In this document: one piece after another, positions 5,757-23,519 of the stretch
How the letters are laid out: each line of letters starts with the position of its first letter
How positions within the stretch are numbered: the first letter of the stretch is position 1
From: a virus
Lineage: Duplodnaviria; Caudoviricetes
Reading direction: 5' to 3' (one strand)
Length of the DNA stretch: 55,640 nucleotides
Virus record (IMG/VR): IMGVR_UViG_3300009082_000005
Span: 1 to 55,640 of that record
Position numbers and translations under genes: made by a program
The notes under the pieces: model-generated
What the model was told of the DNA's origin: nothing
The model's database searches: none
The model's input: only the letters and a program-made list of their open reading frames with translations

Positions 5757-6650
5757 ATGAATTATAGTTTTGATGTTGATGTTGCAACTTATTTAAAAAA
5801 TGTTAACGAGGCTGTTTTCGTTCATAATATAGCATATTGGATATTGCATAATAAAGCAAACGATACAAATTTTAATGATGGATATTATTGGACTTATAAT
5901 ACTCAACAAGCTTTTTCAGAATTATTCCCATTCTGGACAAGAAGACAAATAAGGACAATAGTTGATAATTTAAAATCTAAAAATATTTTAATTGTTAATC
6001 AATTTAATAAAAAAAATTATGACCAAACTAAATGGTATACCTTGAATCATTCATTTACAAAGGAATTTTATAAAGAAATATATATAGAATCAACTAATAA
6101 TGCCAATGGTCAAATCGGTCAATTCGATAATAATGATAGTTTTATGCAAAAAAATACTTCACAATCCACTAATGACCTGAATGGTCAAATCAGTCAATTG
6201 AAATTGACTAAAAAGTCAATTTCAATTGACCAAAGTGTCAATCCTATACCAAATATAAACACAAATATAAACACAAATAATAATAATATATTGGCGATTG
6301 AAGAAAATTTTGAAAACCTCTGGTCTTTATTCCCTAATAAAAAAGGGAAGGCATCTGTAAATAAAAAATCAAAGGAATATTTTTATAATTTAGGTTTTGA
6401 AAAGTCTAAAGAAATAATTCAAAGATACCTGGATTATGTTTCAGAAAGAAGAAAAGAGTTTTCTAGTCTAAATTATCAAAATGGGTCTACTTTTTTTAAT
6501 AGTGGATATGTTGATTATTTAGATGAAAATTATACAGAATATAAGGCTAAAGTTTACAACAAGCCACAGCAGACGACAAATTATGAACAAAGAAAATATG
6601 ATGATGATTTCTTTGATAATTTGTATGACAATGTTGAATATATTAAATAA
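5757..6650 (+). CDS. Phage replication initiator 1 (N-terminal wHTH, internal iterons)
   Basis: DGYYWTYNT...LFPFW...DQTKWY N-domain; FENLWSLFPNKKGK and NGSTFFN C-domain; internal repeats. Confidence 0.8.
   Translation: MNYSFDVDVATYLKNVNEAVFVHNIAYWILHNKANDTNFNDGYYWTYNTQQAFSELFPFWTRRQIRTIVDNLKSKNILIVNQFNKKNYDQTKWYTLNHSFTKEFYKEIYIESTNNANGQIGQFDNNDSFMQKNTSQSTNDLNGQISQLKLTKKSISIDQSVNPIPNINTNINTNNNNILAIEENFENLWSLFPNKKGKASVNKKSKEYFYNLGFEKSKEIIQRYLDYVSERRKEFSSLNYQNGSTFFNSGYVDYLDENYTEYKAKVYNKPQQTTNYEQRKYDDDFFDNLYDNVEYIK
6106..6243. repeat. Iteron-like repeats, probable origin 1
   Basis: AATGGTCAAATC(G/A)GTCAATT twice plus inverted AATTGAC copies, followed by AT-rich AAATATAAACAC repeats. Confidence 0.65.
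6576..6650 (+). repeat. 75-nt segment duplicated at 20246..20320 (69/75 identical)
   Basis: Encodes TNYEQRKYDDDFFxNLYDNxxYIK at the end of both initiators; first 39 nt identical. Confidence 0.95.
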
Positions 6651-12262: not shown

Positions 12263-12788
12263 TTTTTAACCTCATTAAAAATAAAAACATTCCCGAACTT
12301 CCAACCAAAACAATACCAAAAATTATTAATATTGCTGTGTCTGTATCGCCTGTATCTGGCATTTCGTCAACATCAGAATTTTTTGGAGTCTCTGTAGGTG
12401 TTGCTGTAACTTCTGTAATTTCTGGTGTTATATCTCCAGTATTGACTGGCGTTGATGTAATAGTATCTGTATTTGTTGCTGTTGCTTCTGGTGTTGCTGT
12501 AGTTTCTGCTGTAGTTTCTGCTGTAGTTTCTGGATATTCTTCAACTTCCAGAACTTCTTCTCCTTCAAAATAAACTGATTCAAAATTAGTTGACACTAAT
12601 TTTTTGTACCCATCTAAGCCATTTACCCTAATGTCTAATTTCTGAACTCCAAGGCTATTTTTTAGCCCTTCAATCTTAGTTAATTTTACAACTGCCCCTG
12701 CTGGTGTTTCTGTTTCTGCAAATATAGCCATTGTTGCAATAATTATAAATGCAAATATTAAAAATATACTGATTGCTTTTTTAAACAT
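12246..12788 (-). CDS. Secreted protein with LPXTG-like cell-wall sorting signal
   Basis: N-terminal signal peptide (..AIFA|E), Thr/Pro/Glu-rich stalk, MPDTGD + TM + basic tail. Confidence 0.8.
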   Translation of the reverse strand: MFKKAISIFLIFAFIIIATMAIFAETETPAGAVVKLTKIEGLKNSLGVQKLDIRVNGLDGYKKLVSTNFESVYFEGEEVLEVEEYPETTAETTAETTATPEATATNTDTITSTPVNTGDITPEITEVTATPTETPKNSDVDEMPDTGDTDTAILIIFGIVLVGSSGMFLFLMRLKNAKNN

Positions 12789-12863
12789 TAATCATTCGCT
12801 CCTTTGTATTTTTATCAAAATTTTATCACATATATTTTATACAAATATTACAATTATATTACA

Positions 12864-12906
12864 TTACCATATTTATATTGCTTTTACCATATTTATATGG
12901 TAAAAT
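12864..12906 (+). promoter_or_regulatory. Promoter with palindromic operator
   Basis: TTGCTT (12878), 17 nt, TAAAAT (12901); inverted repeat TTTTACCATAT-TT-ATATGGTAAAA (12882-905); direct copy TTACCATATTTATAT at 12864. Confidence 0.75.
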
Positions 12907-12952
12907 ATATTTAGAGGTTGAGAGACCTACTAAATTTAAAGGAGATAATACA

Positions 12953-13318
12953 ATGACAAGATTAGATTATTCAAAAATTATTAACTGGAGAGGGACTGCA
13001 ACAAGAGAAATACAAATAGATGAGCTTCCAGAGTATGAAATAGGTCGAGTATTAAATCCTGGGTTATGTTGGACAGATGGTGGACAATTTAACGTTGAAA
13101 CAAGTGGAAAATATTCAGTAATATTTGTAATAGAAAATGATGTCGAAGGACATCAAGTTGATTATGATAATGAACAAGAATGTGAAGATTTGGGATGTGA
13201 AGATTGTTCTAGTGAAAAAGAAAGTTTAATTAACAAAGATTTTATAGTAACTGATTTTTGGGCTTGGGATGAAGAAACAAAATTTGCAAAAGTATTTTTG
13301 AAGGAAGTTAACTGTTAG
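12953..13318 (+). CDS. Small acidic hypothetical protein (121 aa)
   Basis: AAAGGAG RBS before ATG 12953; D/E-rich. Confidence 0.75.
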   Translation: MTRLDYSKIINWRGTATREIQIDELPEYEIGRVLNPGLCWTDGGQFNVETSGKYSVIFVIENDVEGHQVDYDNEQECEDLGCEDCSSEKESLINKDFIVTDFWAWDEETKFAKVFLKEVNC

Positions 13319-13384
13319 TGCTTATCTAGCAGGTAGGCACTATAGAGTTAATTACTCTAAATAAAATTATAAAGGGAGATTATT

Positions 13385-13918
13385 ATGAAAAAATTGTTTG
13401 ATTATAACATACAAATTGAAGGAGACAACAAAATATATATTCAAGGAGATTATACTCCTTGGTACAACAAAGATAATAATTGTTTATCAGGACAAAATTG
13501 TCCATTGCTTTACGAAAACTTAGAATTGATATCTATAGACCAAAATGGTTTGTGGTTAGAGACAATTGGGAAAGAAAAATTATTAGAGGATAAATATTGG
13601 TATATTACTGAAGTAGATTCAGTTGGTTGCAAGTTCAACCATATTGGATCATATACATTATGGGAAGAACTTGCCGATAGATTGTATATAACAGAGGAAG
13701 AAGAAAAAAATTTAAAAAATTTTTATGGTGAAAAACTTCCAAAGGGTTCAAAAAGCGAAAATATGATTTGTACAAGAGAAGAATTTATAAGAAATAAGTA
13801 TGAAACCAGTAGTAAAAATGGAATATGGGCAGATACAAAGGAAGAAGTCGAAATGTATTTATCAAAACTAAATAAAAATTTTTTGGAGGTAGAAAATAAT
13901 GAAAGAAATTTTAATTAA
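13385..13918 (+). CDS. Acidic hypothetical protein
   Basis: GGGAG RBS, 177 aa. Confidence 0.75.
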   Translation: MKKLFDYNIQIEGDNKIYIQGDYTPWYNKDNNCLSGQNCPLLYENLELISIDQNGLWLETIGKEKLLEDKYWYITEVDSVGCKFNHIGSYTLWEELADRLYITEEEEKNLKNFYGEKLPKGSKSENMICTREEFIRNKYETSSKNGIWADTKEEVEMYLSKLNKNFLEVENNERNFN

Positions 13919-14804
13919 TTTATCCAAATTAGAAAACTCTTCTGAAATGAAATTTGGAAAAGTAACAAATTTAAAACAAGTAGATTTATCACATAAAATG
14001 TGGGAATATACAAGCACAGAAGAATCATATTTTATGAAAATTATCTGTGAAGATATAGAAGATGTTGAAATAATAAAAATGTCCTTTTCTGGTAGAAAAG
14101 ATTATATATCTAATAATATAACAGTATATTACAACATAGATGATATTATAGAAAATGTTATTTATATATCAAAAAGATATAGAGATTTTGAAGCAGAAAA
14201 AGAAGAAGAACTGGAAGAATGGGCAAAAGTAACTATGATTGAAAAAGTAGCTACATTTGTATCTGACTTCATGAAAGCGACTGATATCAAATTTCATGAA
14301 ATAATAAGCAAAATTATGGACTTTTTAAATGAGAATCCAGAACTTTTTGAAAATTTAGAATTTAAAAATATTGAATTTAAAAAAATAACAGATCCAATAG
14401 AGTTTTCAAAAGAAATAATTTTAGAAGACCACTCGCGTTCGCATAGTTGGGCAGGAAGCGAAGGAACCGAGGAAACTGGATATTTATTATATTCATCAGA
14501 TTCAAAACTTGAATTTGGAATTGATTATGAAAACGAACATAGCAACAATGGTCAATCAGAAACGTCATCAGATGAATATGAAGAAGGGAATTTTAATATT
14601 GATAGAACTTATGTAATACTAAAAAAGAAAGAGGGATGGTTTCATTACAATAATAATGGAGATACAAGTAATGACTATGTAAAATATGAATGTATAGCAT
14701 ATGTTGGTGATGATGCTGTATATCAATTTGAGCATGAAGAAATTATAAAAAAATATGAAATAGACAAAAAAGTTTTGGAAAGGAATGTTTTAAATGAAAA
14801 CTAA
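13899..14804 (+). CDS. Acidic hypothetical protein
   Basis: GGAGG RBS, 301 aa, very Glu-rich. Confidence 0.75.
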   Translation: MKEILINLSKLENSSEMKFGKVTNLKQVDLSHKMWEYTSTEESYFMKIICEDIEDVEIIKMSFSGRKDYISNNITVYYNIDDIIENVIYISKRYRDFEAEKEEELEEWAKVTMIEKVATFVSDFMKATDIKFHEIISKIMDFLNENPELFENLEFKNIEFKKITDPIEFSKEIILEDHSRSHSWAGSEGTEETGYLLYSSDSKLEFGIDYENEHSNNGQSETSSDEYEEGNFNIDRTYVILKKKEGWFHYNNNGDTSNDYVKYECIAYVGDDAVYQFEHEEIIKKYEIDKKVLERNVLNEN

Positions 14805-14967
14805 AAAATCATATACACTATCTGATGAAACAATAAAACTAATGAAAGAAATAGAAGAAAAAACAATGCTATCAAAAGTAAAAATTATAGAAATTGCAGT
14901 TTTTGGACTTCATGAAATGATTACAAGGGAAGGATATGACTTGACAAAGTTAAAAATGAAAATTTAG
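14794..14967 (+). CDS. Ribbon-helix-helix regulator (57 aa, not in ORF track)
   Basis: MKTKKSYTLSDETIKLMKEIEEKTMLSKVKIIEIAV fits CopG/RHH pattern; last gene before AGCCGAAAGCTTTTT hairpin. Confidence 0.7.
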   Translation: MKTKKSYTLSDETIKLMKEIEEKTMLSKVKIIEIAVFGLHEMITREGYDLTKLKMKI

Positions 14968-15060
14968 CCGAAAGCTTTTTCTTTTATTGATTTATTCATA
15001 TTTATAATATAAAATAAGTATGAATAATAAAAATCATGTTTAGTATTAAGTGTTTCTACC

Positions 15061-15092
15061 AAAAAAAAAGAGCTTTTACAGGCTCTTTTTTA
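15061..15092. terminator. Bidirectional terminator
   Basis: AAAAAAGAGC-TTTTACAG-GCTCTTTTTT. Confidence 0.7.
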
Positions 15093-15584
15093 TATTATTG
15101 TATACTCATGTATTTTAAGCTTATTATCATAAAGAATATATCTTTCATTTCCATCCTTATCCTTTATTTCAATCCTTGCCTCTAATACCTCAATAGCTGA
15201 TTCTTTTATATCATCATCAATCAAAGAAAAGTCAAACTCTGGTGATGTTTCTCCGGGCAATACAGTTTCACTGCTGTCAATGTATTCTGTAGTATTATTA
15301 TCTTTAAAAATTACTTTAAATTCTATTTTAGTTATAGCATATTCAGAATTATTTTTATATATTCCAACAAGATTATTGGACCCATAAGATGTTTTCTTCA
15401 ATTCAAATTTTACTTCCAGATCGTTATAAATTTCTGGGGCTTTTTCTTTTTCCGTAACTTCTGTTTTTTCTGTTGTTGTTGTAGCATCTGTATTTTTCCC
15501 ATCATATTTTTCAACTTCTGGTCCATAATCACAGCCAGACAAAATGCAAACCATTATTATCATTACTAAAATTGTTTTTTTCAT
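15090..15584 (-). CDS. Lipoprotein
   Basis: MKKT + hydrophobic core + lipobox LSGC; Ig-like C-domain with VLPGETSPEF. Confidence 0.8.
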   Translation of the reverse strand: MKKTILVMIIMVCILSGCDYGPEVEKYDGKNTDATTTTEKTEVTEKEKAPEIYNDLEVKFELKKTSYGSNNLVGIYKNNSEYAITKIEFKVIFKDNNTTEYIDSSETVLPGETSPEFDFSLIDDDIKESAIEVLEARIEIKDKDGNERYILYDNKLKIHEYTII

Positions 15585-15692
15585 AGGGATCTCCTTTGTT
15601 TTATTTTTACTTAATTATATATACTTCAAATATTTCCTAATATTAAAAATTTATTAAATTAATTAAATTAAAAATACCTCATTGATTTTTTT

Positions 15693-16047
15693 CTTTACAT
15701 TTCACCATGGTCGTATTAATACGATAACAAACTTTATAAAGTTGAATTGGTAAGTCTCCTTTACATTTCACCATGGTCGTATTAATACTTTTAAAGATAT
15801 AAAAGAAAATTATTATATATACCTTTACATTTCACCATGGTCGTATTAATACTTTGATAACATGATTGCTTTCCTATTTGATTTTGCTTTACATTTCACC
15901 ATGGTCGTATTAATACCAAATATTATCATGAATACTATTAATATTTGTTATCCTTTACATTTCACCATGGTCGTATTAATACGAAACAAGTTGAATAATA
16001 AAATTTCTAATCTTGAGCTTTACATTTCACCATGGTCGTATTAATAC
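15693..16047 (-). CRISPR. CRISPR array: 6 identical 30-nt repeats, 5 spacers of 34-36 nt
   Basis: CTTTACATTTCACCATGGTCGTATTAATAC at 15693, 15759, 15823, 15887, 15953, 16018; minus-strand sense GTATTAATACGACCATGGTGAAATGTAAAG. Confidence 0.98.
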
Positions 16048-16150
16048 CCACTACAAAACATACTGTTTTCAAGTGCTATGAAGCAAAAAAAAGTAAAATT
16101 TATATGTCAATGTTCGATAATGTAAAAACCATAGTAGATCGACATATTTT
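16048..16150 (-). promoter_or_regulatory. CRISPR leader with inverted-repeat motif
   Basis: AT-rich; ATATGTCAAT (16102-11) / ATCGACATAT (16138-47) 9/10 inverted repeat. Confidence 0.6.
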
Positions 16151-16159
16151 ATTATGTAT

Positions 16160-16292
16160 ATATTTATTTTCGACCAATTATAGTGTAAATGTTCGACCTT
16201 TAGTCGAGCTGCTCACTACATAATTACGTAGCTGCTTGGCGAGTTCTAATATAGCCTCGCCTTTAGGACGGCAAATCGCCCCCGGCTATCCC
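16160..16292 (-). ncRNA. Candidate Cas12f tracrRNA
   Basis: Anti-repeat TTTACA-N7-TGGTCG on the minus strand (16171-16189) pairs with repeat TGTAAA and CGACCA; several GC-rich stems upstream. Confidence 0.7.
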
Positions 16293-17534
16293 AAAATCAG
16301 GATTTGCAATATTAAAAGCTGCATTATAATCAGCATTTTCAGAAAAATCACAGTTTTTACAAATGAATTTTGATTGACTTTTCCTGTTTTCTTTATCTTT
16401 AAATCCACATTTTGAGCATGTTTGACTTGTATATTTAGGATCAATCAATATTACATTTATACCTTCTTTTTCTGCTTTATATGTTATTTTACTTTGTAGA
16501 TCATAATATGTCCAATTTTTTAAAAATAAATTATCTTTTGATATTCCAGATAAATTTTCCATTCTAATTTCTTTACAATTTTCTCTAATGGCTAAATCAA
16601 TTATTCTTTTTGAATATCTATCATTTATTAAATTTCTAAACCTGGAAATTTTATCTGATATCTTTGTAACATTTTTTAACATGCAATTACGCCCACGACC
16701 TTTTCTACCTTTTCCAGCAACTAATAATTGTTGTCTTTTTTTATATCTTTCAGCCTCTACTTTTTTTCTAAATGCTTCTATTTCTCCGCCTGTAATTTTA
16801 TATCTTTTAAGAGTTCCAAAAATAGCCATGTATACAGGATAAATAATACCCATATCTATTCCCATTATGTTTAAACGTTCTACAGAAATTTGTTCAAAAG
16901 AATATGTTAAAAATAACATAAATTTTTTATTTTTTTTGTCATACCTTAATTGGCTTTCTTTTATGCTGTATTTTTCCTCGAAAATTCTTGATAAAATGCT
17001 TCTTTGTGAATTATCAGAAACAATTAAATTAAATAAAAACTTTCCAGATTCTCTGTTAATTTGTTTTTTGTGAACACAAGATAATAAACTTATATCTGCA
17101 AAATATTTTTTATCTTCTTTATGTAAATTAATACTTCTGTTATGTAATGTTATACAATTAGACTTTTTAAAAACACATAAAGTCTTTTCACCTTTGAGAA
17201 TGTCGATTCTATCATTATTAAATCTTCCAATAGCTTTTTTTACTGCACTTGTACGATTAGAACTGCAATTTTGGATATATTTTTTACCTAAAAATGAATC
17301 GATATATCCATCAAAAGTTTTGTAAAATTCAGCTTTTTCACATTTCTGTAGAATTTCATTAGGTTTAGGAAATAAACCATGTTTTTCTTTATAATCTAGC
17401 TTAAATGTAAAAAATTCATATGCTGCATTAATTGCAGTATTCATAACTTTTTTCTGTTCAAACATAAGTTCATGAATTATTTTATATTCACTTTTATTAT
17501 TTAAATATATTTCAAATTTACAAACTGCATTCAT
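16263..17534 (-). CDS. cas12f: Type V-F CRISPR nuclease, Cas12f1-like (TnpB-derived RuvC)
   Basis: RuvC motifs GIDMG, RMENL, NADYNAA; Zn finger CSKC/CKNC; GGEIEAFRKKVE and NWTYYDLQ.KI.YKAE recalled as shared with AsCas12f1; adjacent array. Confidence 0.88.
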   Translation of the reverse strand: MNAVCKFEIYLNNKSEYKIIHELMFEQKKVMNTAINAAYEFFTFKLDYKEKHGLFPKPNEILQKCEKAEFYKTFDGYIDSFLGKKYIQNCSSNRTSAVKKAIGRFNNDRIDILKGEKTLCVFKKSNCITLHNRSINLHKEDKKYFADISLLSCVHKKQINRESGKFLFNLIVSDNSQRSILSRIFEEKYSIKESQLRYDKKNKKFMLFLTYSFEQISVERLNIMGIDMGIIYPVYMAIFGTLKRYKITGGEIEAFRKKVEAERYKKRQQLLVAGKGRKGRGRNCMLKNVTKISDKISRFRNLINDRYSKRIIDLAIRENCKEIRMENLSGISKDNLFLKNWTYYDLQSKITYKAEKEGINVILIDPKYTSQTCSKCGFKDKENRKSQSKFICKNCDFSENADYNAAFNIANPDFGIAGGDLPS

Positions 17535-17543
17535 ATTTTTACC

Positions 17544-17813
17544 TCAATTTCTATTAAAATCATTTTTATTTTTTACAGTATAACTTATATTATAATTTTC
17601 ACCAGTAATTTTTAGAATATTATCTACTATTAAAGAATTATATCTAGTTTCTAAAATTCCTTTTGCAAATTCAGTCGGAACTTCCAAAATAATATTATTA
17701 TGATCAACTTGTAAAGGTATAATTGTCTTTATCCATGTGTTAAAGCTTAGTTCTGATAATTCATTTTTCAATAAATTTAATAATTTTGCCCATAAATCAT
17801 TCAATAAAACCAC
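17544..17813 (-). CDS. Stand-alone DnaA N-terminal domain (domain I) protein
   Basis: LW...L..LK.ELSELSFNTWIK.I.P......IILEVP.EFAKGILE.RY..LI; stops after about 86-89 aa; likely TTG start 17804 after AAGGAG. Confidence 0.85.
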   Translation of the reverse strand: MVLLNDLWAKLLNLLKNELSELSFNTWIKTIIPLQVDHNNIILEVPTEFAKGILETRYNSLIVDNILKITGENYNISYTVKNKNDFNRN

Positions 17814-18005
17814 TCCTTATTTATAAAATACATAAATATTATATACAAAATTTCCTATAATTTAAATTTAGTTAATCGAATAAGAAAAACAAAGCATACT
17901 TGCAAGAAAACAAGTAATGTATTGCAAATGTCAATACAAAGTCTCTTAATCGTGATTGACTTTATAACCAAGTACAACATAAAATTATAATAAAGTGAAT
18001 GGAGA

Positions 18006-18224
18006 GTGATATTTTTGGATAAAAATATTTTGTCAAAAGTTTTAACACTGGCTCAAGTTTCTGAGAAAATAAATACAACAAATCAAAATTTATATGATTT
18101 TATTGATAGGAACAGAATACCAACATACTTGTATGAATACAAAAAAGCAGATAAGCAAAAGAGAGGAGTGTATATATTCCATATTGATTTCTTAGAATAT
18201 TATGAAAAGAATCTAAAAAAATAA
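18006..18224 (+). CDS. Small HTH DNA-binding protein (excisionase-like)
   Basis: VLTLAQVSEKINTTNQNLYDFI; 72 aa; followed by terminator hairpin. Confidence 0.55.
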   Translation: MIFLDKNILSKVLTLAQVSEKINTTNQNLYDFIDRNRIPTYLYEYKKADKQKRGVYIFHIDFLEYYEKNLKK

Positions 18225-18273
18225 ACCTTACTAGGTTTTATTTTTTTTGTAATATAATTGTTATAATATTATA

Positions 18274-18302
18274 TTGACACTTTGTTGCAAGTAAGTTATA
18301 AT
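18274..18302 (+). promoter_or_regulatory. Consensus SigA promoter
   Basis: TTGACA (18274-79), 17 nt, TATAAT (18297-302). Confidence 0.85.
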
Positions 18303-18309
18303 TATAAAT

Positions 18310-18423
18310 GTAAGATGGTTGCTACGAACAACCACCTTACTGAGAAATTCCGGTACGATGTATACTAAAATCCCTAACTAATATTTAGTATACATCGTAC
18401 CTCCAAAAAAATCAATGGAGGTA
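18310..18423 (+). other. Structured 5' leader with 18-bp perfect inverted repeat and anti-SD hairpin
   Basis: GGTACGATGTATACTAAA (18352-69) / TTTAGTATACATCGTACC (18384-401); TACCTCCA (18398-405) pairs with TGGAGGTA (18416-23). Confidence 0.65.
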
Positions 18424-18430
18424 TTTTATT

Positions 18431-18580
18431 ATGTCAAATTATTACATGGAAAACATTGAAGGGTACGAAATGATTCCAGATTGGTACGCAGAGGAATTAG
18501 AAGCTCAAGAATTTGAAACATATCTTAAAACATCAGGTTATTACAACAGTTTTATTCCAGAAATGGAGGTGGCTGCTTAA
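18431..18580 (+). CDS. Small acidic protein (49 aa, not in ORF track)
   Basis: GGAGG RBS; MSNYYMENIEGYEMIPDWYAEELEAQEF...EVAA. Confidence 0.65.
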   Translation: MSNYYMENIEGYEMIPDWYAEELEAQEFETYLKTSGYYNSFIPEMEVAA

Positions 18581-18754
18581 ATGTCAAAATACACAATAAT
18601 ATCAAATAGATATATGAAACTTAGAAAATCCCTTATGTTGAAATGGAACATAGGAAAAATAAAAACACACAGATTCCTAAATACAGGTAATAAACTTTTT
18701 ATAAGGGAACAGGCAGAAAAGAGAATGGCATTAAACAGTTTACTAACAAAATAA
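18581..18754 (+). CDS. Small basic protein (57 aa, not in ORF track)
   Basis: GGAGGTG RBS; MSKYTIISNRYMKLRK... Confidence 0.55.
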   Translation: MSKYTIISNRYMKLRKSLMLKWNIGKIKTHRFLNTGNKLFIREQAEKRMALNSLLTK

Positions 18755-18801
18755 ATGAGAGGGTTTAAACCCTCTCTAAAATAAAATTTCTGGAGGTTAT
18801 T

Positions 18802-19497
18802 ATGATTAATATGGAAAATTCAAATATGAACTATAGCGAACTTTTAAAAGCCAGATTTGATAACGATGACATCGAATGGAGGGTTCAACAATCTGGACTT
18901 GATAAAAATGGAAAACCATGGTGTATGGTTATACCTTTTATACAGGCTAGAGCAATTCAAGAAAGATTAGATGATGTATTTGGTTTTGAAAACTGGGAAG
19001 ATACTTATAGGCAAACAACTAAAAATGGTTGGATATGTACATTGAAAGTTACTGTAAACGGTAAAACAGTTACAAAAGAAAATGGAGCAGATGAAACAAA
19101 CATTGAACCAACCAAAGGCGGAATATCAGACTCTTTTAAACGTGTTGCTTCATCTGGATATGGCATAGGAAGGTATCTGTATAAAGAAAAATTTAGGTTT
19201 GCCGAATGTAGCATAAATAAACAAAATGGATTCACGGAAAAAGCTAAAACAAAAAACGGTACTTATTTTTACTGGAAGATACCAACATTAGAAAATGTAT
19301 ATCAAACAACTCCAGAGCAAGTCAAAAGATTATGCACAATACAAACAAAAGCAAATGTATCAGATGAAATAATTAAAAATTTTATTATGAATGAATTTGG
19401 AATAAACTCAAGAAAAAAACTTAATAATTTGCAGTATGAAGCAGTTATAAAAAAGCTTGAAGCAACTATGAAAACTAACAAAAAGGAAGCCTCTTAA
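18802..19497 (+). CDS. Rad52/Sak-family single-strand annealing protein
   Basis: IEWRVQ, ARAIQERLDDVFG..NW, KGGISDSFKR, YGIGRYLY. Confidence 0.88.
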   Translation: MINMENSNMNYSELLKARFDNDDIEWRVQQSGLDKNGKPWCMVIPFIQARAIQERLDDVFGFENWEDTYRQTTKNGWICTLKVTVNGKTVTKENGADETNIEPTKGGISDSFKRVASSGYGIGRYLYKEKFRFAECSINKQNGFTEKAKTKNGTYFYWKIPTLENVYQTTPEQVKRLCTIQTKANVSDEIIKNFIMNEFGINSRKKLNNLQYEAVIKKLEATMKTNKKEAS

Positions 19498-19516
19498 GAG
19501 GTTTCCTGTGAGGTGA

Positions 19517-20320
19517 ATGATGGCTAAAAAATACTATTGGTTAAAGTTAAAAGATGATTTTTTTAGGCAAAAACAAATCAAAAAATTAAGGAAAATTGCT
19601 GGTGGAGATACATACACGATTATATATTTAAAAATGTTATTACTTAGTTTGCAACATGAAGGAAAATTATATTTTGAAGGTGTTGAAGATGATTTCTCAG
19701 AAGAAATTGCATTAGAAATAGATGAAGAATCGGAAAATGTAAAAGTCACAATGTTGTTTTTACTAAAAAATAATTTAATTAAAGAAGTTTCTACAGATGA
19801 ATTTTTTATGAACTCAGTTCCAAAAATGGTTGGAAAGGAATCTGAAAGTGCTGAAAGAACTAGAAGATACAGGGAAAGAAAGAATTTGATAGAATCAAAA
19901 ACGTCACAATGTGACGGCGATGTGACTTTGTGTGACACAGAGCAAGAGCAAGAGATAGAGCAAGAGATAGAGAAAGAGCAACAACAAGAGCAAAAGTCAA
20001 AACATGTTGTTGTTGTTGAACTAAAGAATAAAATTGAAAATATTATTAATTCTAAAATTACAATTAAGGGAGTAAATTCTCTTTTAGAAAAATCATCTTT
20101 GGAAACAATAAATTATTATCTTGATAACTGGGATAAATTTAAAAATAGGAATAAGGAAAATGTAACAGGATATTTTATAAATGCAGTTATAGATAAATAT
20201 AATATCCCAAAAGAAGAGAAAGGAAAAAGCAAACCAGTACAAAGTACAAATTATGAACAAAGAAAATATGATGATGATTTCTTTAATAATTTGTATGACA
20301 ATATTAAATATATAAAGTAG
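19517..20320 (+). CDS. Phage replisome organizer (replication initiator 2)
   Basis: KKYYWLKLKDDFF...IKKLRKIAGGDTYTIIYLKMLL; ESAERTRRYRER; internal repeats. Confidence 0.9.
   Translation: MMAKKYYWLKLKDDFFRQKQIKKLRKIAGGDTYTIIYLKMLLLSLQHEGKLYFEGVEDDFSEEIALEIDEESENVKVTMLFLLKNNLIKEVSTDEFFMNSVPKMVGKESESAERTRRYRERKNLIESKTSQCDGDVTLCDTEQEQEIEQEIEKEQQQEQKSKHVVVVELKNKIENIINSKITIKGVNSLLEKSSLETINYYLDNWDKFKNRNKENVTGYFINAVIDKYNIPKEEKGKSKPVQSTNYEQRKYDDDFFNNLYDNIKYIK
19903..19992. repeat. Iteron-like repeats, probable origin 2
   Basis: GTCACA followed by TGTGAC at 19910, 19921, 19931, then AGAGCA/AGAGAT tract. Confidence 0.65.
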
Positions 20321-20333
20321 GAGGAATGAGTTT

Positions 20334-20660
20334 ATGAAAATTAAAGAAGCTGACATAGTTGTAATATTTGATATAGGTATGAATGGAGAAATATTAGAAA
20401 GTAATTATGAAGAAAAAGAAGGAATAAATTTTGATGATTTTATAGGTGATAATTTAGGTGATTTAGTAGGAATAGAAGAAGGGCTGAAAGAGTATTTTGA
20501 TACAAAATCATGTTTTTTATTTAATTATAATTATTATGAAGGCAATGGACAATTTGATCCAATTGAATATGATGTATGCTTTGAGTTAGTAGATTCTTTT
20601 ATAATTGAAAAGGACATACATAAATATTACTTAGGAGAAGAAACAAGCAGAGATTTATAA
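20334..20660 (+). CDS. Acidic hypothetical protein (paralogue of 21421..21801)
   Basis: GGAGG RBS; IEYD...F.I..DI.KYY shared motif. Confidence 0.7.
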   Translation: MKIKEADIVVIFDIGMNGEILESNYEEKEGINFDDFIGDNLGDLVGIEEGLKEYFDTKSCFLFNYNYYEGNGQFDPIEYDVCFELVDSFIIEKDIHKYYLGEETSRDL

Positions 20661-20867
20661 AATTATTTAAAAATGAAAATAATACAGAATCTCAAAAGGA
20701 GGATTATGTAAAATGTCAAATAAAAATCATATGAGTATAAAAGTAATCAGTTTTGTAAATTTTGCTAAGAAAAGGTTTAATGATAATAATTTCAATTATA
20801 AAGTTGAATCTGTTGTAATTGGCAATGTGAGATATATAAATTCGGATTATAAGGGAAGTGAAGATAT

Positions 20868-21131
20868 ATGTGTATTGAAATAAAAATAAGTTATAGCTTG
20901 TATAAAAAGTATTCTGATTTACTGGACATAAAATTTAAACGAAGAGATAATCTTTCAAAAGAAAGGGCAAAGTTATTACTAAAAAGACCTGGCAATGAAG
21001 AAGAGCAAAGAATAGTTAACAATGACTTAAACATAGTAAATGACCAAATAACATATGCATCTGGTGAAATAGAAATACTGCGAAAATTTTTAAATGAAAT
21101 CGCAACAGAAAATAAAGAAGGTGGAGTATGA
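20868..21131 (+). CDS. Hypothetical coiled-coil protein
   Basis: 87-aa ORF. Confidence 0.55.
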   Translation: MCIEIKISYSLYKKYSDLLDIKFKRRDNLSKERAKLLLKRPGNEEEQRIVNNDLNIVNDQITYASGEIEILRKFLNEIATENKEGGV

Positions 21132-21424
21132 GGTGTGAAAAGTGTGGATGTGAAATAGATAGGGATATAATACTACAACTTTGTAATTGCTGTTTTGAAG
21201 AATACATAAAAAATTTGGATTTTGAATATTATGAAATGAAGGGAGAAAAGGACATGAGAAAGCATATAAAAAAATGTACAGTAATCGAAAAACTTAATGA
21301 GTACAGCAAAGATACGCTTATTGAATATATTATTACAGAGGGATTCATAAATTTCATGGAATTGGATAGGATTCAGAAAGATATTGAAAAGATGCTAGAG
21401 GGGGAAGCGAGGGAAGAGGTATGA
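21128..21424 (+). CDS. Zinc-finger hypothetical protein
   Basis: CEKC...LCNCC; ATGA coupling. Confidence 0.6.
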   Translation: MRCEKCGCEIDRDIILQLCNCCFEEYIKNLDFEYYEMKGEKDMRKHIKKCTVIEKLNEYSKDTLIEYIITEGFINFMELDRIQKDIEKMLEGEAREEV

Positions 21425-21801
21425 AAAAATGTGATGTAGTGATAACTGTTGATGTGTTCAATGATTCTGAAAGATTTATAAGTGATAGAGTTGAATATTC
21501 TTATGATGTTAAAGACGATTATGATTGTACTGATTCTATAGACATGTTACTTGAAAATTTGATAGATGCTAAAGAAATAGAAGTTGACAATAGATATATT
21601 ATTATTGCTAAATTAGAACAAGAGGAAACATATGATATGGAATATGGAATTGAATATGATGAATACTTAGATGTAATAGAAATATTTTTGATTGATACTG
21701 ATATTTGCAAGAAATATTATATTAATGAATGTGAAGAAGATTTAAAAAGTGATGGAATAAAATTGGTTAATCCTTTTTCACAGGAAGGATGGATAGAGTG
21801 A
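21421..21801 (+). CDS. Highly acidic hypothetical protein
   Basis: 126 aa, D/E-rich; ATGA coupling. Confidence 0.7.
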   Translation: MKKCDVVITVDVFNDSERFISDRVEYSYDVKDDYDCTDSIDMLLENLIDAKEIEVDNRYIIIAKLEQEETYDMEYGIEYDEYLDVIEIFLIDTDICKKYYINECEEDLKSDGIKLVNPFSQEGWIE

Positions 21802-22139
21802 CTATAAAAGAACAATGCAAAAATGATGAAGCTGGAATCAATGTAAGAGTTAGTAAGTATTTTGAGAAGAATTTAGCAGATATGCTTAAAGTATTGGCTA
21901 AAAAGAGAAAGGAAAGATTATGTTTAAAGTAAAAATTAAAGGAAAAGATGAAACTTCGTATTATAAGGTTTATGATGTAGTTAAAGAAAAAAATTATTTT
22001 GCTACTCATATTCATGGTGAGTATATAACTGAATTTTTAATACATGATTTTAAAAATGGATTTCACTGGGTTAATGCGAATTTATGTGAACCAGTATAAA
22101 GTAGATGGAGGTGTAACAGCCTCCAGAAAGGTTTTAAAA

Positions 22140-22319
22140 ATGAGTATTAAAAAAGTAAGTAGAGAAAAATCTCTAAGTATAATTGAAAATAGATTACCTT
22201 TAGGATTATTTTATACAATTGACAATGGAGTTTACATTGGAATTGATAATAAGGACAGCCATGCATGGACAGAAGAATTTAAGTCTCTAGGAAGTTGTAA
22301 AAGATGGTTAATGAGTTAG
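22140..22319 (+). CDS. Conserved small phage protein
   Basis: PLGLFY....YIGIDN....AWTEEF....CKRWL; likely start MSIKK. Confidence 0.6.
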   Translation: MSIKKVSREKSLSIIENRLPLGLFYTIDNGVYIGIDNKDSHAWTEEFKSLGSCKRWLMS

Positions 22320-22336
22320 GAAAGGAGGAATTTTGA

Positions 22337-22585
22337 TTGAATAAATTAATTGTAAAAACATTTTTAAAACATAATCCTCCAGTTAATTATTTTAAATTAT
22401 TAGATAATGCATTATTAATATGGAATGATGAAATAAAAGAAAAAACAGATTATAATTTTGATTATGCATTTACATATGATAGCATTAATGTTTTAAAAGA
22501 TGATAAAGATTATATATATTTAAATTTTGGAGAAGATAGACCACAAACATTAAAATTTAAAAAGAAAAGTAAAAATAAGATGTGA
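22337..22585 (+). CDS. Hypothetical protein
   Basis: AGGAGG RBS, TTG start. Confidence 0.6.
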   Translation: MNKLIVKTFLKHNPPVNYFKLLDNALLIWNDEIKEKTDYNFDYAFTYDSINVLKDDKDYIYLNFGEDRPQTLKFKKKSKNKM

Positions 22586-22609
22586 TTGTGAATTTATACA
22601 GGAGGAATT

Positions 22610-22852
22610 TTGATGGATGATTATGAAATCAAAAAAGCTAATTATTATAAAACTTTAGATGCTGATAAAACTATTCCAAAGTTAAAAATAGGTCAGAAAT
22701 ATATTGGGTTAAAGTCAAATAAAATTTATATTGTTTATTTTAACGATGAAGAACAGAGAATAGCAATGAAAAGAATTGAAAAAAAATCTCATTTTTTAGA
22801 TTGTCATTTAGATATGTTTGAATGGGATTTATTAAGAATAGTAGAAGAATAG
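22610..22852 (+). CDS. Hypothetical protein
   Basis: AGGAGG RBS. Confidence 0.6.
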   Translation: MMDDYEIKKANYYKTLDADKTIPKLKIGQKYIGLKSNKIYIVYFNDEEQRIAMKRIEKKSHFLDCHLDMFEWDLLRIVEE

Positions 22853-22864
22853 GATGGATTTAAA

Positions 22865-23050
22865 ATGAAAAAATTAGGTTACATACACGATGTTGCAAGT
22901 GATATGATTAATATGTTAATTCAGTATAAGGAATTAGAAGAACTAGAAGGCAGCGGAAAAGATTTTGAAAATGAGATATACAAAATTAAAGCAGTCAAAA
23001 AAGATGGAAAAATAATTATTGAAATAGAACAACAACAAAAAGAGCTGTAA
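22865..23050 (+). CDS. Hypothetical protein
   Basis: Last gene before AAAAAGAGC...GCTCTTTTT terminator. Confidence 0.55.
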   Translation: MKKLGYIHDVASDMINMLIQYKELEELEGSGKDFENEIYKIKAVKKDGKIIIEIEQQQKEL

Positions 23051-23070
23051 TGGCTCTTTTTTATACTCAC

Positions 23071-23340
23071 TTAAAATTTTTTGTAAAAATTATTATATAA
23101 ATATTTTTTTATTTTTTCAATTTCATCAAAGTTAAATTTAATAAAATCATTTTCGTTTTCTAATATAAAATAATAATCTCTAAACTCTTTATTTGGATAT
23201 TTTTTATGGATTCCCCATCTACCAGTAAATGAAAAATAATACATTAGGATTCTTTTATTGATATAATATATTGGTTTTACATATCCTTTAAATCCAAAAC
23301 TATCAAAAATTTCAATTAATTGAGTTTCTATTTTTTTCAC
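23071..23340 (-). CDS. Hypothetical protein
   Basis: AGGTGG RBS, GTG start. Confidence 0.55.
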   Translation of the reverse strand: MKKIETQLIEIFDSFGFKGYVKPIYYINKRILMYYFSFTGRWGIHKKYPNKEFRDYYFILENENDFIKFNFDEIEKIKKYLYNNFYKKF

Positions 23341-23357
23341 TAAATACCACCTATATT

Positions 23358-23519
23358 TTAAACATAAAATAACCTTCCTAATAAATTAATGATGCCTGCT
23401 ACAATATAAAAAGGCAACAATATAATAATATAGCATATATAAAAAATTGCAAATATCATGCATATTACAAAGAAAAATAATAAAATTATGAAGAAAAATA
23501 GCCATTCTAATACATTCAT
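23358..23519 (-). CDS. Very hydrophobic 53-aa membrane peptide (not in ORF track)
   Basis: MNVLEWLFFFIILLFFFVICMIFAIFYICYIIILLPFYIVAGIINLLGRLFYV. Confidence 0.45.
   Translation of the reverse strand: MNVLEWLFFFIILLFFFVICMIFAIFYICYIIILLPFYIVAGIINLLGRLFYV

What the first reader, a model, noticed from the sequence alone, without database searches (positions are those of the whole stretch)
17544..17813. Stand-alone DnaA domain I gene immediately upstream of cas12f
Seen: an ORF matching the DnaA N-terminal signature (SFNTWI, VP..F....LE.RY) with its own RBS and a clean stop where domain I ends, 9 nt before the cas12f start; no AAA+ remnant follows. Known: Firmicute DnaA domain I is the docking surface for DnaD and for the sporulation inhibitor SirA. 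Inference: a decoy that blocks host initiation or absorbs SirA-like inhibitors, or an adaptor for the phage initiators. Operon linkage with Cas12f may be a new accessory pairing that I do not recognise from described systems.
Basis: partly seen in the sequence, partly recalled or inferred. Interest (0 to 1): 0.75.

Follow-up and report, generated by a model that had tools for sequence, protein, structure and literature searches.

The report
Phage-borne free-standing DnaA domain I
A complete 55.6-kb phage carries a small intact gene that copies only the partner-docking tip of the bacterial replication starter DnaA; it probably interferes with or borrows the host's helicase-loading route, and its position next to a miniature CRISPR-Cas12f unit looks accidental.

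Summary
On the minus strand, 17804-17544 encodes an 86-aa protein (89 aa from an upstream GTG) that is a whole DnaA domain I: Pfam DnaA_N 50 bits, AlphaFold pLDDT 91, TM 0.84 to B. subtilis domain I. No AAA+ part exists anywhere in the phage. Nine bases downstream lies a genuine type V-F cas12f with a structured 215-nt gap and a six-repeat CRISPR array.

The Cas12f pairing is not supported. None of 162 loci holding Cas12f/TnpB relatives has a DnaA_N gene within 4 kb. The closest relatives sit in unrelated phages with unrelated neighbours.

The protein has diverged far from cellular DnaA (terminal branch 1.55 against a median of 0.09). It still keeps all 12 core consensus positions, including T26/W27/F49, the published DnaD-binding hot spot. 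Elsewhere, DnaA_N is fused to phage-type initiators.

My best reading (about 0.42) is a replication take-over factor that occupies DnaD's DnaA-binding site. Rivals are a trans-acting adaptor for the phage's own initiators, a Cas12f accessory (about 0.06), and a passenger. No stand-alone relative was found in phage collections, so no conservation or dN/dS test was possible. Interest is moderate.

The parts
17838..17866 (-). Promoter-like site (TTTAAA-17-TATAAT) upstream of the DnaA_N gene. It diverges from the + strand promoter-like site at 17956-17985.
   Evidence: This is only a consensus match: 29 sites were found against 25.6 expected in the region, so position is the only argument.
17813..17818 (-). 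Shine-Dalgarno AAGGAG, 8 nt before the TTG start
   Evidence: Read from the sequence.
17544..17804 (-). Stand-alone DnaA domain I gene (86 aa, TTG start, TGA stop; 89 aa if read from the GTG at 17813)
   Evidence: AF2 pLDDT 90.9. Foldseek 4tps_D/B: E 2e-8, TM 0.84, rmsd 0.8-0.9.
17542..17545 (-). GAGG ribosome-binding site of cas12f, overlapping the stop codon of the DnaA_N gene
   Evidence: Read from the sequence.
16263..17534 (-). cas12f (423 aa), type V-F / V-U3. The RuvC-type acidic residues D227, E326 and D402 and the CxxC...CxxC zinc-ribbon cysteines (C373, C376, C392, C395) are conserved.
   Evidence: Assigning these residues to the catalytic triad is recalled family knowledge.
16048..16262 (-). 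Structured non-coding gap between cas12f and the array; probable tracrRNA region
   Evidence: RNA fold z = -2.83, with 1 of 200 shuffles folding as well. GC 0.32 against 0.25 for cas12f. No convincing anti-repeat was mapped.
15693..16047 (-). CRISPR array: 6 identical 30-nt repeats and 5 spacers of 34-36 nt
15090..15584 (-). 164-aa predicted lipoprotein (signal peptide with LSGC), the last gene of the minus-strand block
   Evidence: No family hit in Pfam, PHROGs or PADLOC. The lipobox reading is by eye.
15064..15091 (.). Palindromic hairpin with A-run and T-run flanks. It is a terminator-like site that closes both the minus-strand block and the converging + operon.
18006..18224 (+). First gene of the divergent early operon (72 aa, weak HTH_17). 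The operon continues with Erf (18802-19497).
19517..20320 (+). Phage replisome organiser (DnaD-like helicase-loader family). It is a candidate partner or beneficiary of the domain I protein.
   Evidence: Pfam Phage_rep_org_N 75.6 bits. PHROG 5968/10469. Homologues are named from Clostridium and Paraclostridium species.
5757..6650 (+). Second initiator-like protein (PHROG 'replication initiation protein' families 11233, 270, 428). It shares a 30-aa C-terminal tail (80% identical) with the replisome organiser.
   Evidence: There are tandem repeats just upstream and inside.

Best explanation
The 86-aa protein is a free copy of DnaA domain I that the phage uses to manipulate the host's helicase-loading pathway.

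Shown:
- It is a complete, confidently folded domain I.
- It has none of the parts that bind ATP, oligomerise or bind DNA, so it cannot initiate replication itself.
- It keeps the T26/W27/F49 surface.

From the literature: in B. subtilis and S. aureus this surface is what DnaA uses to recruit the N-terminal winged-helix domain of DnaD. An isolated domain I is enough to bind that domain.

Inferred: when expressed, the phage protein occupies the DnaA-binding site of the host's DnaD. DnaA at oriC can then no longer recruit DnaD, and host initiation is throttled. The outcome would resemble SirA's, reached by mimicking the target rather than masking it. DnaD and the downstream loader and helicase would stay available to the phage's own DnaA-independent initiators, the replisome organiser at 19517-20320 and the Rep-like protein at 5757-6650.

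The gene belongs functionally to the adjacent early/replication region. The cas12f-tracr-CRISPR cassette lies downstream in the same transcription unit, but this is a juxtaposition particular to this phage.
For: 1. Identity and integrity.
- Pfam DnaA_N 50 bits.
- Ungapped alignment to B. subtilis domain I.
- AF2 pLDDT 90.9 with the alpha-alpha-beta-beta-alpha-beta order.
- Foldseek best hits are 4tps chains D and B, TM 0.84.
- No AAA+ domain in the genome.

2. Constraint on the right surface.
- In a tree of 55 domain I rows, the phage row has a terminal branch of 1.55 changes per column against a median of 0.09. Its median identity to the cellular rows is 51%.
- I took 82 distinct single-domain rows (83 proteins) from the unbiased HMMER search. 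They have 12 interior positions with at least 70% consensus: W8, K16, S23, T26, W27, P33, V45, F49, R57, Y58, L61, I62 in B. subtilis numbering. All 12 are identical in the phage protein.
- The frame is open where composition predicts a 4e-5 to 2e-4 chance.

3. Published function of that surface.
- T26A, W27A and F49A abolish DnaD binding and are lethal.
- His-tagged domain I alone retains the DnaD N-terminal domain.
- DnaD still reaches the plasmid-type origin oriN when the domain I mutants block oriC.
- These come from passages read.

4. The phage looks DnaA-independent.
- DnaA-box-like 9-mers are not enriched: 12 found, 22.8 +/- 4.9 expected.
- It encodes two non-DnaA initiator-type proteins.
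- No replicative helicase or loader was recognised among the 20 ORFs scanned against PHROGs from window 1269-4486, 5757-7835, 9073-10639 and 11801-26311.

5. Link between DnaA_N and mobile-element replication.
- The protein matches the C-terminal 77 positions of PHROG 26369, 'replication initiation protein'.
- P0101, P0092 and P0124 join phage-type initiator N-termini (HTH_36; PHROGs 270, 9773, 428) to a C-terminal DnaA_N.
- The phage's own Rep-like protein hits PHROGs 270 and 428 as well.

6. Position: the gene is the first one divergent from the early Erf/replisome-organiser operon.

7. Presence in RNA libraries.
- A 233-nt contig of a metatranscriptome run covers 17484-17711 with no differences, spanning the DnaA_N/cas12f junction.
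- A second RNA run covers 16947-17234.
- This is weak evidence, because DNA carry-over cannot be excluded and contigs carry no strand.
Against: - No binding or physiological result exists for this protein.
- The host is unknown. Its DnaD was not examined.
- Identity to the nearest cellular domain I is only 55-61%, so cognate recognition is assumed.
- No stand-alone relative was found in phage or plasmid collections, so no independent lineage shows that such a gene is selected.
- The only other copies, in runs of another study, are identical, so no dN/dS could be computed.
- The minus-strand block also carries a CRISPR unit and a lipoprotein, which are typical of genes expressed in lysogeny. 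If the block is expressed in lysogeny, a strong inhibitor of host initiation would be costly to the lysogen.
- The natural fusions argue as much for a recruiting role as for an inhibitory one.
- DnaD is also used for restart, so titrating it could hurt the phage too.
Confidence: 0.42

Rival explanations
1. Trans-acting adaptor. The free domain I is a detached subunit of the phage's own initiator. It docks on the replisome organiser or the Rep-like protein and gives them the DnaA-type handle that recruits host DnaD to the phage origin. It would do in trans what initiator-DnaA_N fusions do in cis.
For: - Fusions of phage-type initiators with a C-terminal DnaA_N exist: P0101, P0092, P0124 and PHROG 26369.
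- The phage's Rep-like protein belongs to the same PHROG families (270, 428) as the N-termini of two of these fusions.
- The two initiator-type proteins share a 30-aa C-terminal tail at 80% identity, as if both dock one common partner.
- The gene borders the replication operon.
Against: - Nothing shows a contact between the domain I protein and either initiator.
- The shared tail motif is widespread in replisome organisers of phages that have no domain I gene (alignment A4), so it more likely binds a host factor.
- The replisome organiser is itself DnaD-like and may not need DnaD.
- The gene is not in the same operon as either initiator.
Confidence: 0.2
2. Cas12f accessory. The domain I protein is a functional partner of the phage CRISPR-Cas12f unit, for example by tethering Cas12f to DnaD-loaded origins or forks of rival replicons, or by regulating it.
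For: - The gap is 9 nt, and the cas12f RBS overlaps the stop codon.
- A single promoter-like site lies upstream.
- An RNA-library contig spans the junction.
- A phage Cas12 that needs a small protein cofactor (host thioredoxin) has been reported (abstract of 10.1101/2025.01.20.633832).
Against: - 0 of 162 loci with Cas12f/TnpB relatives have a DnaA_N ORF within 4 kb at E<=0.01. L003 and L006 are one contig.
- The 36 loci with near-full-length relatives have diverse or no upstream same-strand neighbours.
- 0 of 5 whole virus records with the closest relatives (two of them complete) have PF11638.
- 0 of 51 loci of the closest domain I relatives have a Cas12f.
- The flanks of the eight closest loci share no other neighbouring gene with this phage; the only extra match is a distant 43-kb ORF hit in L003.
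- The conserved surface of the protein is the DnaD hot spot, not something new.
Confidence: 0.06
3. Passenger or relic. A captured dnaA 5' fragment that is still open but has no selected function, carried along at the head of the operon.
For: - It is an orphan: no stand-alone relative was found in IMG/VR pattern scans, INPHARED or PLSDB.
- Its terminal branch is long.
- Its GC content is the lowest of the block, 0.207.
Against: - After about 1.5 changes per site, the frame is still open where chance predicts at most 2e-4.
- All 12 core consensus positions are kept.
- The model folds with pLDDT 91.
- It has a canonical RBS and ends cleanly a few residues after the domain.
- The identical sequence recurs in a second study's runs.
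Confidence: 0.1
4. Poisoning of DnaA itself. The free domain I pairs with domain I of host DnaA, or with another domain I partner, rather than with DnaD. It would disturb DnaA self-association or regulation.
For: - Domain I mediates DnaA-DnaA contacts and is a hub for regulators (review passages; introduction passage).
- A cryptic-prophage protein, YfdR, acts on E. coli domain I.
- W8, the position equivalent to the E. coli dimerisation tryptophan (equivalence recalled), is kept.
Against: - Whether Firmicute domain I self-associates through this surface was not checked here.
- No test was made.
- The best-conserved patch is the DnaD hot spot.
Confidence: 0.1

Closest known systems
Domain I of cellular DnaA (Pfam DnaA_N, PF11638), e.g. 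B. subtilis DnaA residues 1-82 (PDB 4tps, 8btg)
   Same: Same fold and same length. It is 36% identical to B. subtilis in the structural alignment and 45-61% identical to Clostridia-type sequences. It has the same T26/W27/F49 hot spot.
   Different: It is a separate 86-aa polypeptide encoded by a phage, with no linker, AAA+ or DNA-binding domain anywhere in the genome. Its branch is much longer than those of cellular copies.
[quoted passage not shown]
   Same: The proposed outcome is the same: the DnaA-DnaD contact is broken and helicase recruitment to oriC stops (papers).
   Different: There is no homology. SirA binds DnaA, whereas this protein would bind DnaD by mimicking DnaA. The SirA family was over cut-off in 0 of 200 sampled Clostridia genomes.
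YfdR of E. coli cryptic prophage CPS-53
   Same: A prophage-encoded small protein that acts on the domain I interface and inhibits initiation when overexpressed (review passage).
   Different: YfdR is a ligand of domain I, not a copy of it. The host lineage and partner set differ (DiaA/DnaB rather than DnaD).
Initiator-DnaA_N fusions and DnaA_N-only proteins of mobile elements (PHROG 26369; P0101, P0092, P0124; triple-repeat P0002-P0004; DnaA_N hypothetical genes of the Orientia RAGE element)
   Same: A DnaA_N domain used outside DnaA, in replication proteins of phages or as cargo of mobile elements.
   Different: In those proteins the domain is fused to an origin-binding module or repeated in tandem. 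Here it is a single free domain. None of those was seen next to a Cas12f. Their functions are untested.
Type V-F (V-U3) CRISPR-Cas12f units on phages and plasmids
   Same: The neighbouring cassette is an ordinary member: a 423-aa effector, an array and no Cas1. Subtype V-F is reported as enriched on plasmids (review passage).
   Different: No described V-F locus that I saw, and none of the 162 loci examined here, has a DnaA_N gene.

Membership tests
DnaA_N / DnaA domain I (PF11638) | Sequence match above the curated cut-off over the whole domain | tested here: met
   50.0 bits against 24.6, covering profile positions 1-59 of 65. Own-genome search gives 49.8 bits.
DnaA_N / DnaA domain I (PF11638) | KH-like alpha-alpha-beta-beta-alpha-beta fold | tested here: met
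   AF2 pLDDT 90.9 with elements H2-15, H18-25, E29-34, E37-42, H45-67, E72-77. Foldseek 4tps_D/B: TM 0.84, rmsd 0.8-0.9 A.
DnaA_N / DnaA domain I (PF11638) | Interaction hot spot T26/W27/F49 (B. subtilis numbering) | tested here: met
   All three residues are identical in the ungapped alignment and in the consensus comparison. Their role comes from the papers read.
DnaA_N / DnaA domain I (PF11638) | Binds DnaD N-terminal domain | not testable with these tools
   Needs a binding experiment with the host's DnaD.
DnaA initiator protein (TIGR00362) | AAA+ domain III and DNA-binding domain IV on the same polypeptide | tested here: not met
   41.9 bits against a cut-off of 343.9, with only profile positions 1-77 of 437 matched. 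PF00308 gives 0 matches in the genome. The ORF ends 4-7 residues after the domain.
Type V-F CRISPR-Cas12f (the neighbour) | Cas12f effector with RuvC and zinc-ribbon motifs | tested here: met
   PADLOC Cas12f 375 bits and Cas12u3 364 bits. PDB 8j12_A 7.5e-83 and 9nzq_A 'Cas12f' 9.5e-72. D227 and E326 are invariant, D402 is nearly invariant, and four Cys are invariant in 18 sequences.
Type V-F CRISPR-Cas12f (the neighbour) | Adjacent CRISPR array in the same orientation | tested here: met
   6 identical 30-nt repeats at 15693-16047. Relatives carry arrays too.
Type V-F CRISPR-Cas12f (the neighbour) | tracrRNA with an anti-repeat | tested here: inconclusive
   The 215-nt gap is structured, z = -2.83. 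The best anti-repeat candidate pairs only 20-22 of 30 positions.
Cas12f accessory gene (hypothetical class) | Recurrent linkage with cas12f across independent loci | tested here: not met
   0 of 162 loci, 0 of 5 whole virus records, and 0 of 51 domain I loci with a Cas12f.
SirA family (PF10747) | Homology to SirA, or presence of SirA in the likely host class | tested here: not met
   The protein is DnaA_N, not SirA. SirA is over cut-off in 0 of 200 sampled Clostridia genomes, and the B. subtilis control is positive.

The most novel reading that the evidence does not exclude
The domain I protein is a true subunit or regulator of the phage CRISPR-Cas12f unit. Through its DnaD-binding surface it brings or restricts Cas12f to DnaD-loaded origins and restart sites. 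RNA-guided cutting would then be coupled to the replication initiation of rival phages or plasmids that depend on the same host adaptor. This would be the first link between a type V effector and the replication-initiation machinery.
Probability: 0.06. Interest if true: 0.85.

Novelty: new variant of a known kind. Interest (0 to 1): 0.47.

Why it matters
Phages are known to take over host replication with small proteins that bind host factors. A phage that carries a free copy of the initiator's own adaptor-docking domain would be take-over by mimicry of the initiator. I found no described case. My literature searches showed listings and a few passages only, and supplements were closed.

If the protein titrates DnaD, it offers two things:
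- A natural, minimal, genetically encoded inhibitor of the DnaA-DnaD contact in low-GC Gram-positive bacteria. This contact is essential and is discussed as a drug target.
- A simple handle for studying how DnaA-independent replicons share the helicase-loading pathway.

The finding also gives a clean negative. Tight operon linkage with a CRISPR effector in one genome is not evidence of a functional pairing.

Tried and rejected
1. Complex prediction with three chains (Cas12f, replisome organiser, domain I protein as partner). The verdict was 'no answer': scores 0.28 and 0.17 against a mark of 0.32, and controls were not run. This is not evidence either way.

2. Close stand-alone relatives in IMG/VR.
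- Single-protein scan: 29 pattern matches, 0 relatives.
- Alignment A3: 10 pattern matches, 0 relatives.
- These scans need exact short motifs and can miss distant copies.

3. INPHARED tblastn gave 2 weak hits. Both turned out to be bacterial dnaA loci on records labelled UNVERIFIED (rnpA-yidC-dnaA-dnaN, and a 463-aa dnaA).

4. PLSDB tblastn gave 3 hits, all annotated full-length dnaA.

5. Metagenome scan gave 51 loci.
- 40 have 443-494-aa frames.
- 9 are cut by contig ends.
- 2 have shorter frames inside contigs (120 and 337 aa).
- None is closer than 55-59% identity, so no dN/dS was possible.

6. Clostridia genome sample.
- 336 of 400 genomes match, almost always once.
- The one short frame among the listed matches (G145, 117 aa) is dnaA cut by the record end.
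- The second copy in G177 is a 319-aa truncated DnaA paralogue, and those in G370 are 438-440-aa frames.

7. Spacer targets.
- No self-target and no target in any fetched locus.
- Two spacer seeds had no exact match in IMG/VR.
- Three spacers were not scanned.

8. Triple-repeat protein P0002 was not found in IMG/VR. Relatives of the phage's Erf were not found in IMG/VR. In INPHARED the Erf relatives reach at most about 40% identity and are in unrelated phages. No syntenic relative lacking the cassette could therefore be compared.

9. Fold of the replisome organiser: pLDDT 67.5, with only the N-terminal 20-110 confident. Foldseek gives generic winged-helix regulators at E>=0.017, so no specific likeness to the DnaD N-terminal domain was shown. 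Profile and sequence searches of both initiators against PDB found nothing.

10. The conservation count on the metagenome set (30 of 32 positions identical) was set aside. That set was ascertained with motifs taken from the query. One search replaces it.

11. PADLOC: the domain I protein gives only a 14-bit, E 0.008 match to PDC-M48A. I treated this as noise.

No habitat claim is made from them.
Full report
**What the window is.** The window is a whole virus record of 55,640 bp with 123-bp direct terminal repeats. CheckV rates it 100% complete. GC content is 0.28. I infer, but have not shown, that the host is Clostridium-like, for two reasons:
- The replisome organiser has thousands of homologues. 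The named ones come from Clostridium gasigenes, C. botulinum, C. sporogenes and Paraclostridium tenue.
- Domain I of the protein in question is closest to Clostridia-type DnaA.

**The observation.** The ORF 17544..17813 is real and lies on the minus strand.
- The listed GTG start sits inside the AAGGAG ribosome-binding site. The TTG at 17804, 8 nt downstream, is the likelier start. It gives the 86-aa product that the public gene call also has.
- Pfam DnaA_N scores 50.0 bits against a cut-off of 24.6.
- The NCBIfam DnaA model matches only its first 77 of 437 positions.
- phmmer against PDB aligns residues 4-85 without a gap to residues 4-85 of B. subtilis DnaA (8btg_A, 4tps_B; E about 1e-11).
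- AlphaFold2 on a 25-row alignment gives pLDDT 90.9 and the alpha-alpha-beta-beta-alpha-beta order.
- Foldseek's best PDB hits are the two domain I chains of the SirA complex 4tps (E 2e-8, TM 0.84, rmsd 0.8-0.9 A). Next come E. coli and H. pylori domain I and the KH-like domain of DciA.
- The frame has no internal stop, while the other five frames of the same stretch have 3-16. Composition predicts a 4e-5 to 2e-4 chance of 89 open codons.
- No Bac_DnaA ATPase domain exists anywhere in the genome.
- The stop codon is 9 nt from the ATG of the next gene, and a GAGG overlaps the stop.

**The neighbour and the block.**
- The 423-aa downstream protein is a genuine type V-F effector. PADLOC Cas12f scores 375 bits over residues 4-413 and Cas12u3 scores 364 bits. 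NCBIfam guided_TnpB scores 152 bits. PDB chains 8j12_A, 7wju_A and 8dzj_A give E about 1e-82, and 9nzq_A ('Cas12f') gives 9.5e-72. That the first three are the Acidibacillus enzyme is my recollection.
- In an alignment of 18 relatives, D227 and E326 are invariant, D402 is nearly invariant, and four zinc-ribbon cysteines are invariant.
- A 215-nt gap follows that folds better than 199 of 200 shuffles (z -2.83). I could not map a convincing anti-repeat in it.
- After the gap come six identical 30-nt repeats with five spacers of 34-36 nt.
- After the array come a 164-aa lipoprotein-like gene and a palindromic terminator-like hairpin.
- There is no Cas1 in the genome.
- A promoter-like site lies just upstream of the DnaA_N gene, back to back with one that faces the early operon. 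That operon contains a small HTH protein, Erf and the replisome organiser. Such consensus sites are as common as chance in this AT-rich DNA (29 found, 25.6 expected), so only their position speaks.

**Is the linkage with cas12f conserved? No.**
- I collected 2 loci with the single protein, 80 viral loci and 80 genome loci with an 18-sequence alignment. Each has about 4 kb of flank. L003 and L006 are the same contig.
- I built an HMM from 166 DnaA_N domains of the unbiased protein search. It finds the window's own gene at E 1e-32 and nothing else: 0 of 162 loci at E<=0.01.
- Many of these loci are distant TnpB-like matches. For the 36 loci with near-full-length relatives, I listed the same-strand ORFs that end within 400 nt upstream. 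They are absent or unrelated in size, ranging from none to 661 aa.
- The two closest loci that I read have a head-morphogenesis-like gene (L003) or ParA plus a 142-aa gene (L004) upstream.
- PF11638 is absent from all 5 whole virus records that hold the closest relatives. Two of these records are complete.
- The eight closest loci share no other neighbouring gene with this phage. Beyond cas12f and its antisense shadow, the only match is one L003 ORF to a distant window ORF at 42793-43383. The cassette therefore moves between unrelated phages.
- In the other direction, the 51 metagenome loci with the most similar domain I sequences contain no Cas12f relative.

**Is a free domain I common? Not in what I could search.**
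- The exhaustive HMMER search over 1.84 billion representatives gave 1127 hits at E<=1e-3, 72 at E<=1e-10, and only the query itself at E<=1e-30.
- I classified the 149 best other hits:
  - 31 visibly continue into domain III.
  - 79 are short or tailed pieces without a domain III motif. These cannot be told apart from N-terminal fragments at contig ends. At least the cluster of P0005 consists of partial C. botulinum DnaA.
  - 20 have a 30-89-aa N-terminal extension.
  - 12 have two or three tandem DnaA_N domains. One of them, P0058, is a long DnaA by Pfam.
  - 7 carry the domain at the C-terminus.
- In 400 sampled Clostridia genomes, 336 match and almost all match once, in frames of about 440-490 aa, with at most 52% identity. 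The single short frame among the listed matches is dnaA cut by the end of a circular record. The extra copies in G177 and G370 are a truncated paralogue and ordinary-length frames.
- INPHARED (50,697 records) gave two weak tblastn hits. Both are bacterial dnaA loci on unverified records.
- PLSDB gave three annotated dnaA genes.
- Two motif scans of IMG/VR gave nothing.
- These searches are BLAST-level or motif-level. A profile census of viral contigs could not be run.

**Is the protein under constraint?** No close relative exists for a dN/dS test. The only other copies I found, in runs of a different study, are identical over the pieces covered. Indirect evidence is nevertheless strong:
- In a maximum-likelihood tree of 55 domain I rows (75 columns, so poorly resolved), the phage row has a terminal branch of 1.55 against a median of 0.09, and its placement is unresolved.
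- Its median identity to the cellular rows is 51%, while their own median of medians is 61%.
- Despite this divergence, the protein keeps every strongly conserved position. I took 82 distinct single-domain rows (83 proteins) from the unbiased search. They have 12 interior positions with at least 70% consensus, and all 12 are identical in the phage protein: W8, K16, S23, T26, W27, P33, V45, F49, R57, Y58, L61 and I62 in B. subtilis numbering.
- A first count on the metagenome set (30 of 32 identical) is discounted, because that set was found with motifs of the query.

Change has therefore fallen on the variable positions, as expected for a protein still selected to fold and to present the same surface.

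**What that surface does.**
- In passages of Matthews and Simmons (bioRxiv 313882) and Winterhalter et al. 2022 (PMC10201431), T26, W27 and F49 form the hot spot through which B. subtilis domain I binds the N-terminal winged-helix domain of DnaD.
- Alanine changes at these positions are lethal and abolish DnaD recruitment to oriC.
- The isolated domain I retains the DnaD N-terminal domain on a nickel column.
- SirA competes for the same site.
- The equivalent aromatic residues serve S. aureus DnaA-DnaD.
- DnaD still reaches the plasmid-type origin oriN when the domain I mutants block oriC.
- The same preprint notes that phages and plasmids of low-GC Gram-positive bacteria encode their own DnaD- and DnaB-like adaptors.
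- A review passage (PMC5448010) describes a prophage protein, YfdR, that binds E. coli domain I and inhibits initiation when its gene cluster is overexpressed.

**Mechanism proposed.** A free domain I with an intact hot spot, and nothing else, should bind the DnaD N-terminal domain and compete with DnaA. I therefore commit to a decoy that throttles host oriC firing at the helicase-recruitment step while sparing the phage's own replication. Three observations make the phage look DnaA-independent:
- DnaA-box-like 9-mers are, if anything, depleted: 12 found against 22.8 +/- 4.9 expected.
- The phage encodes a replisome organiser of the DnaD-like family and a second Rep-like protein with nearby tandem repeats.
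- I recognised no replicative helicase or loader among the 20 ORFs scanned against PHROGs from window 1269-4486, 5757-7835, 9073-10639 and 11801-26311. The helicase at 24947-26311 is of another type.

Which steps are shown, and which inferred:
- Shown: identity, fold, integrity and retention of the hot spot.
- From the literature: the function of the hot spot.
- Inferred: binding to this host's DnaD, and the physiological effect.

**The main rival within replication.**
- The protein matches the last 77 positions of PHROG 26369, 'replication initiation protein'.
- Among the C-terminal-domain hits, P0101 combines HTH_36 and PHROG 270-type initiator sequence with a C-terminal DnaA_N. P0092 and P0124 combine O-like initiator sequence (PHROG 9773, 428) with one.
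- The phage's own Rep-like protein hits PHROGs 270 and 428.
- Mobile-element initiators thus recruit this domain in cis, presumably to reach DnaD. A detached copy might do the same in trans.
- Against this, nothing links the free protein physically to either initiator.
- The 30-aa tail that the two initiators share (80% identical) is a motif common to replisome organisers of phages without such a gene.

**Expression.**
- Contigs of two metatranscriptome runs from a study other than the probable source match without any difference. One 233-nt contig covers 17484-17711, with 51 nt in cas12f and 168 nt in the DnaA_N gene. Two contigs of the other run cover 16947-17234 inside cas12f.
- This fits co-transcription of the two genes in nature.
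- Contigs carry no strand, DNA can contaminate RNA libraries, and a contig across two genes does not prove one transcript. I count it only as a weak hint.
- DNA runs of that study hold identical pieces of the whole block, so the arrangement is not an assembly artefact of one sample.

**Comparison with what is known, and novelty.**
- The domain is a textbook family, and the cassette beside it is an ordinary V-F unit.
- Subtype V-F is reported as enriched on plasmids, and CRISPR units and solitary repeats in viruses are reviewed (PMC11656645, passages).
- DnaA_N-domain hypothetical genes are cargo of the Orientia RAGE element, at 10-23 copies per genome and with function unknown (PMC10732058, passages).
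- What I did not find described is a phage-encoded single free domain I. I saw listings and selected passages only, from searches with 'DnaA domain I'+phage+DnaD (9 papers) and DnaA_N/PF11638/'DnaA N-terminal domain' (230 papers, 25 listed).
- I rate it a new variant of a known kind, namely small phage proteins that redirect host replication initiation. Interest is moderate: the eye-catching CRISPR pairing is most likely incidental, but the decoy hypothesis is specific and easy to test.

Noticed in passing
window 439-560: A solitary CRISPR-repeat-like unit (Rfam CRISPR-DR7, 39.4 bits against a gathering score of 37). It ends in ATTGAAAC and is followed about 60 nt later by a second ...GATTGAAAC element. 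It is unrelated to the Cas12f array repeat. It could be a solitary repeat unit or mini-array that exploits or blocks a host type I/III system.
   Followed up: no
window 5757-6650 and 19517-20320: Two otherwise unrelated initiator-type proteins end in the same 30-aa acidic-aromatic tail (24 of 30 identical; the DNA is 75% identical over 143 nt). The core of the tail (NF..R.YD.D.LE) recurs in many replisome organisers, which suggests a shared docking peptide for a host factor.
   Followed up: partly
window 1269-6650: A plasmid-like module: a short tyrosine recombinase (254 aa), an FtsK/SpoIIIE-like ATPase (395 aa), and a Rep-like protein flanked by tandem repeats (5657-5753, 6192-6279). The element may be a phage-plasmid.
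   Followed up: partly
window 15090-15584 (-): A 164-aa predicted lipoprotein with no family match closes the DnaA_N-cas12f-CRISPR block. It may be a superinfection-exclusion type moron.
   Followed up: no
whole window: DnaA-box-like 9-mers (TTATCCACA, up to 1 mismatch) are fewer than expected: 12 against 22.8 +/- 4.9, and 99 of 100 shuffles have at least 12.
   Followed up: yes
proteins P0002-P0004, P0015, P0024, P0026, P0040: Proteins of 230-315 aa made of two or three tandem DnaA_N domains, some with a C-terminal coiled coil and with no AAA+ domain. The P0002 cluster has 29 members on contigs of up to 68 kb. It is an uncharacterised family of DnaA_N-only proteins.
   Followed up: partly
proteins P0101, P0092, P0124, P0073: P0101, P0092 and P0124 join phage-type initiator N-termini (HTH_36, O-like) to a C-terminal DnaA_N. 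P0073 is a permuted form, with the DnaA ATPase domain placed before DnaA_N.
   Followed up: partly
L004 3790-6248 (IMG/VR record of 117,989 bp with terminal repeats): A 38%-identical Cas12f with a 5-repeat array lies directly behind parA and a 142-aa gene. This appears to be a large phage-plasmid that carries the same kind of cassette beside its partition genes.
   Followed up: no
L170 (OR846603.1) and L226 (MT838945.1): Two records filed as phage (both marked UNVERIFIED) carry ordinary bacterial dnaA neighbourhoods: rnpA-yidC-dnaA-dnaN in one and a 463-aa dnaA in the other. They are probably bacterial DNA.
   Followed up: yes
window 17544-17804 (-): A weak PADLOC match of the domain I protein to the N-terminus of the candidate defence protein PDC-M48A (E 0.008, 14 bits).
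   Followed up: no
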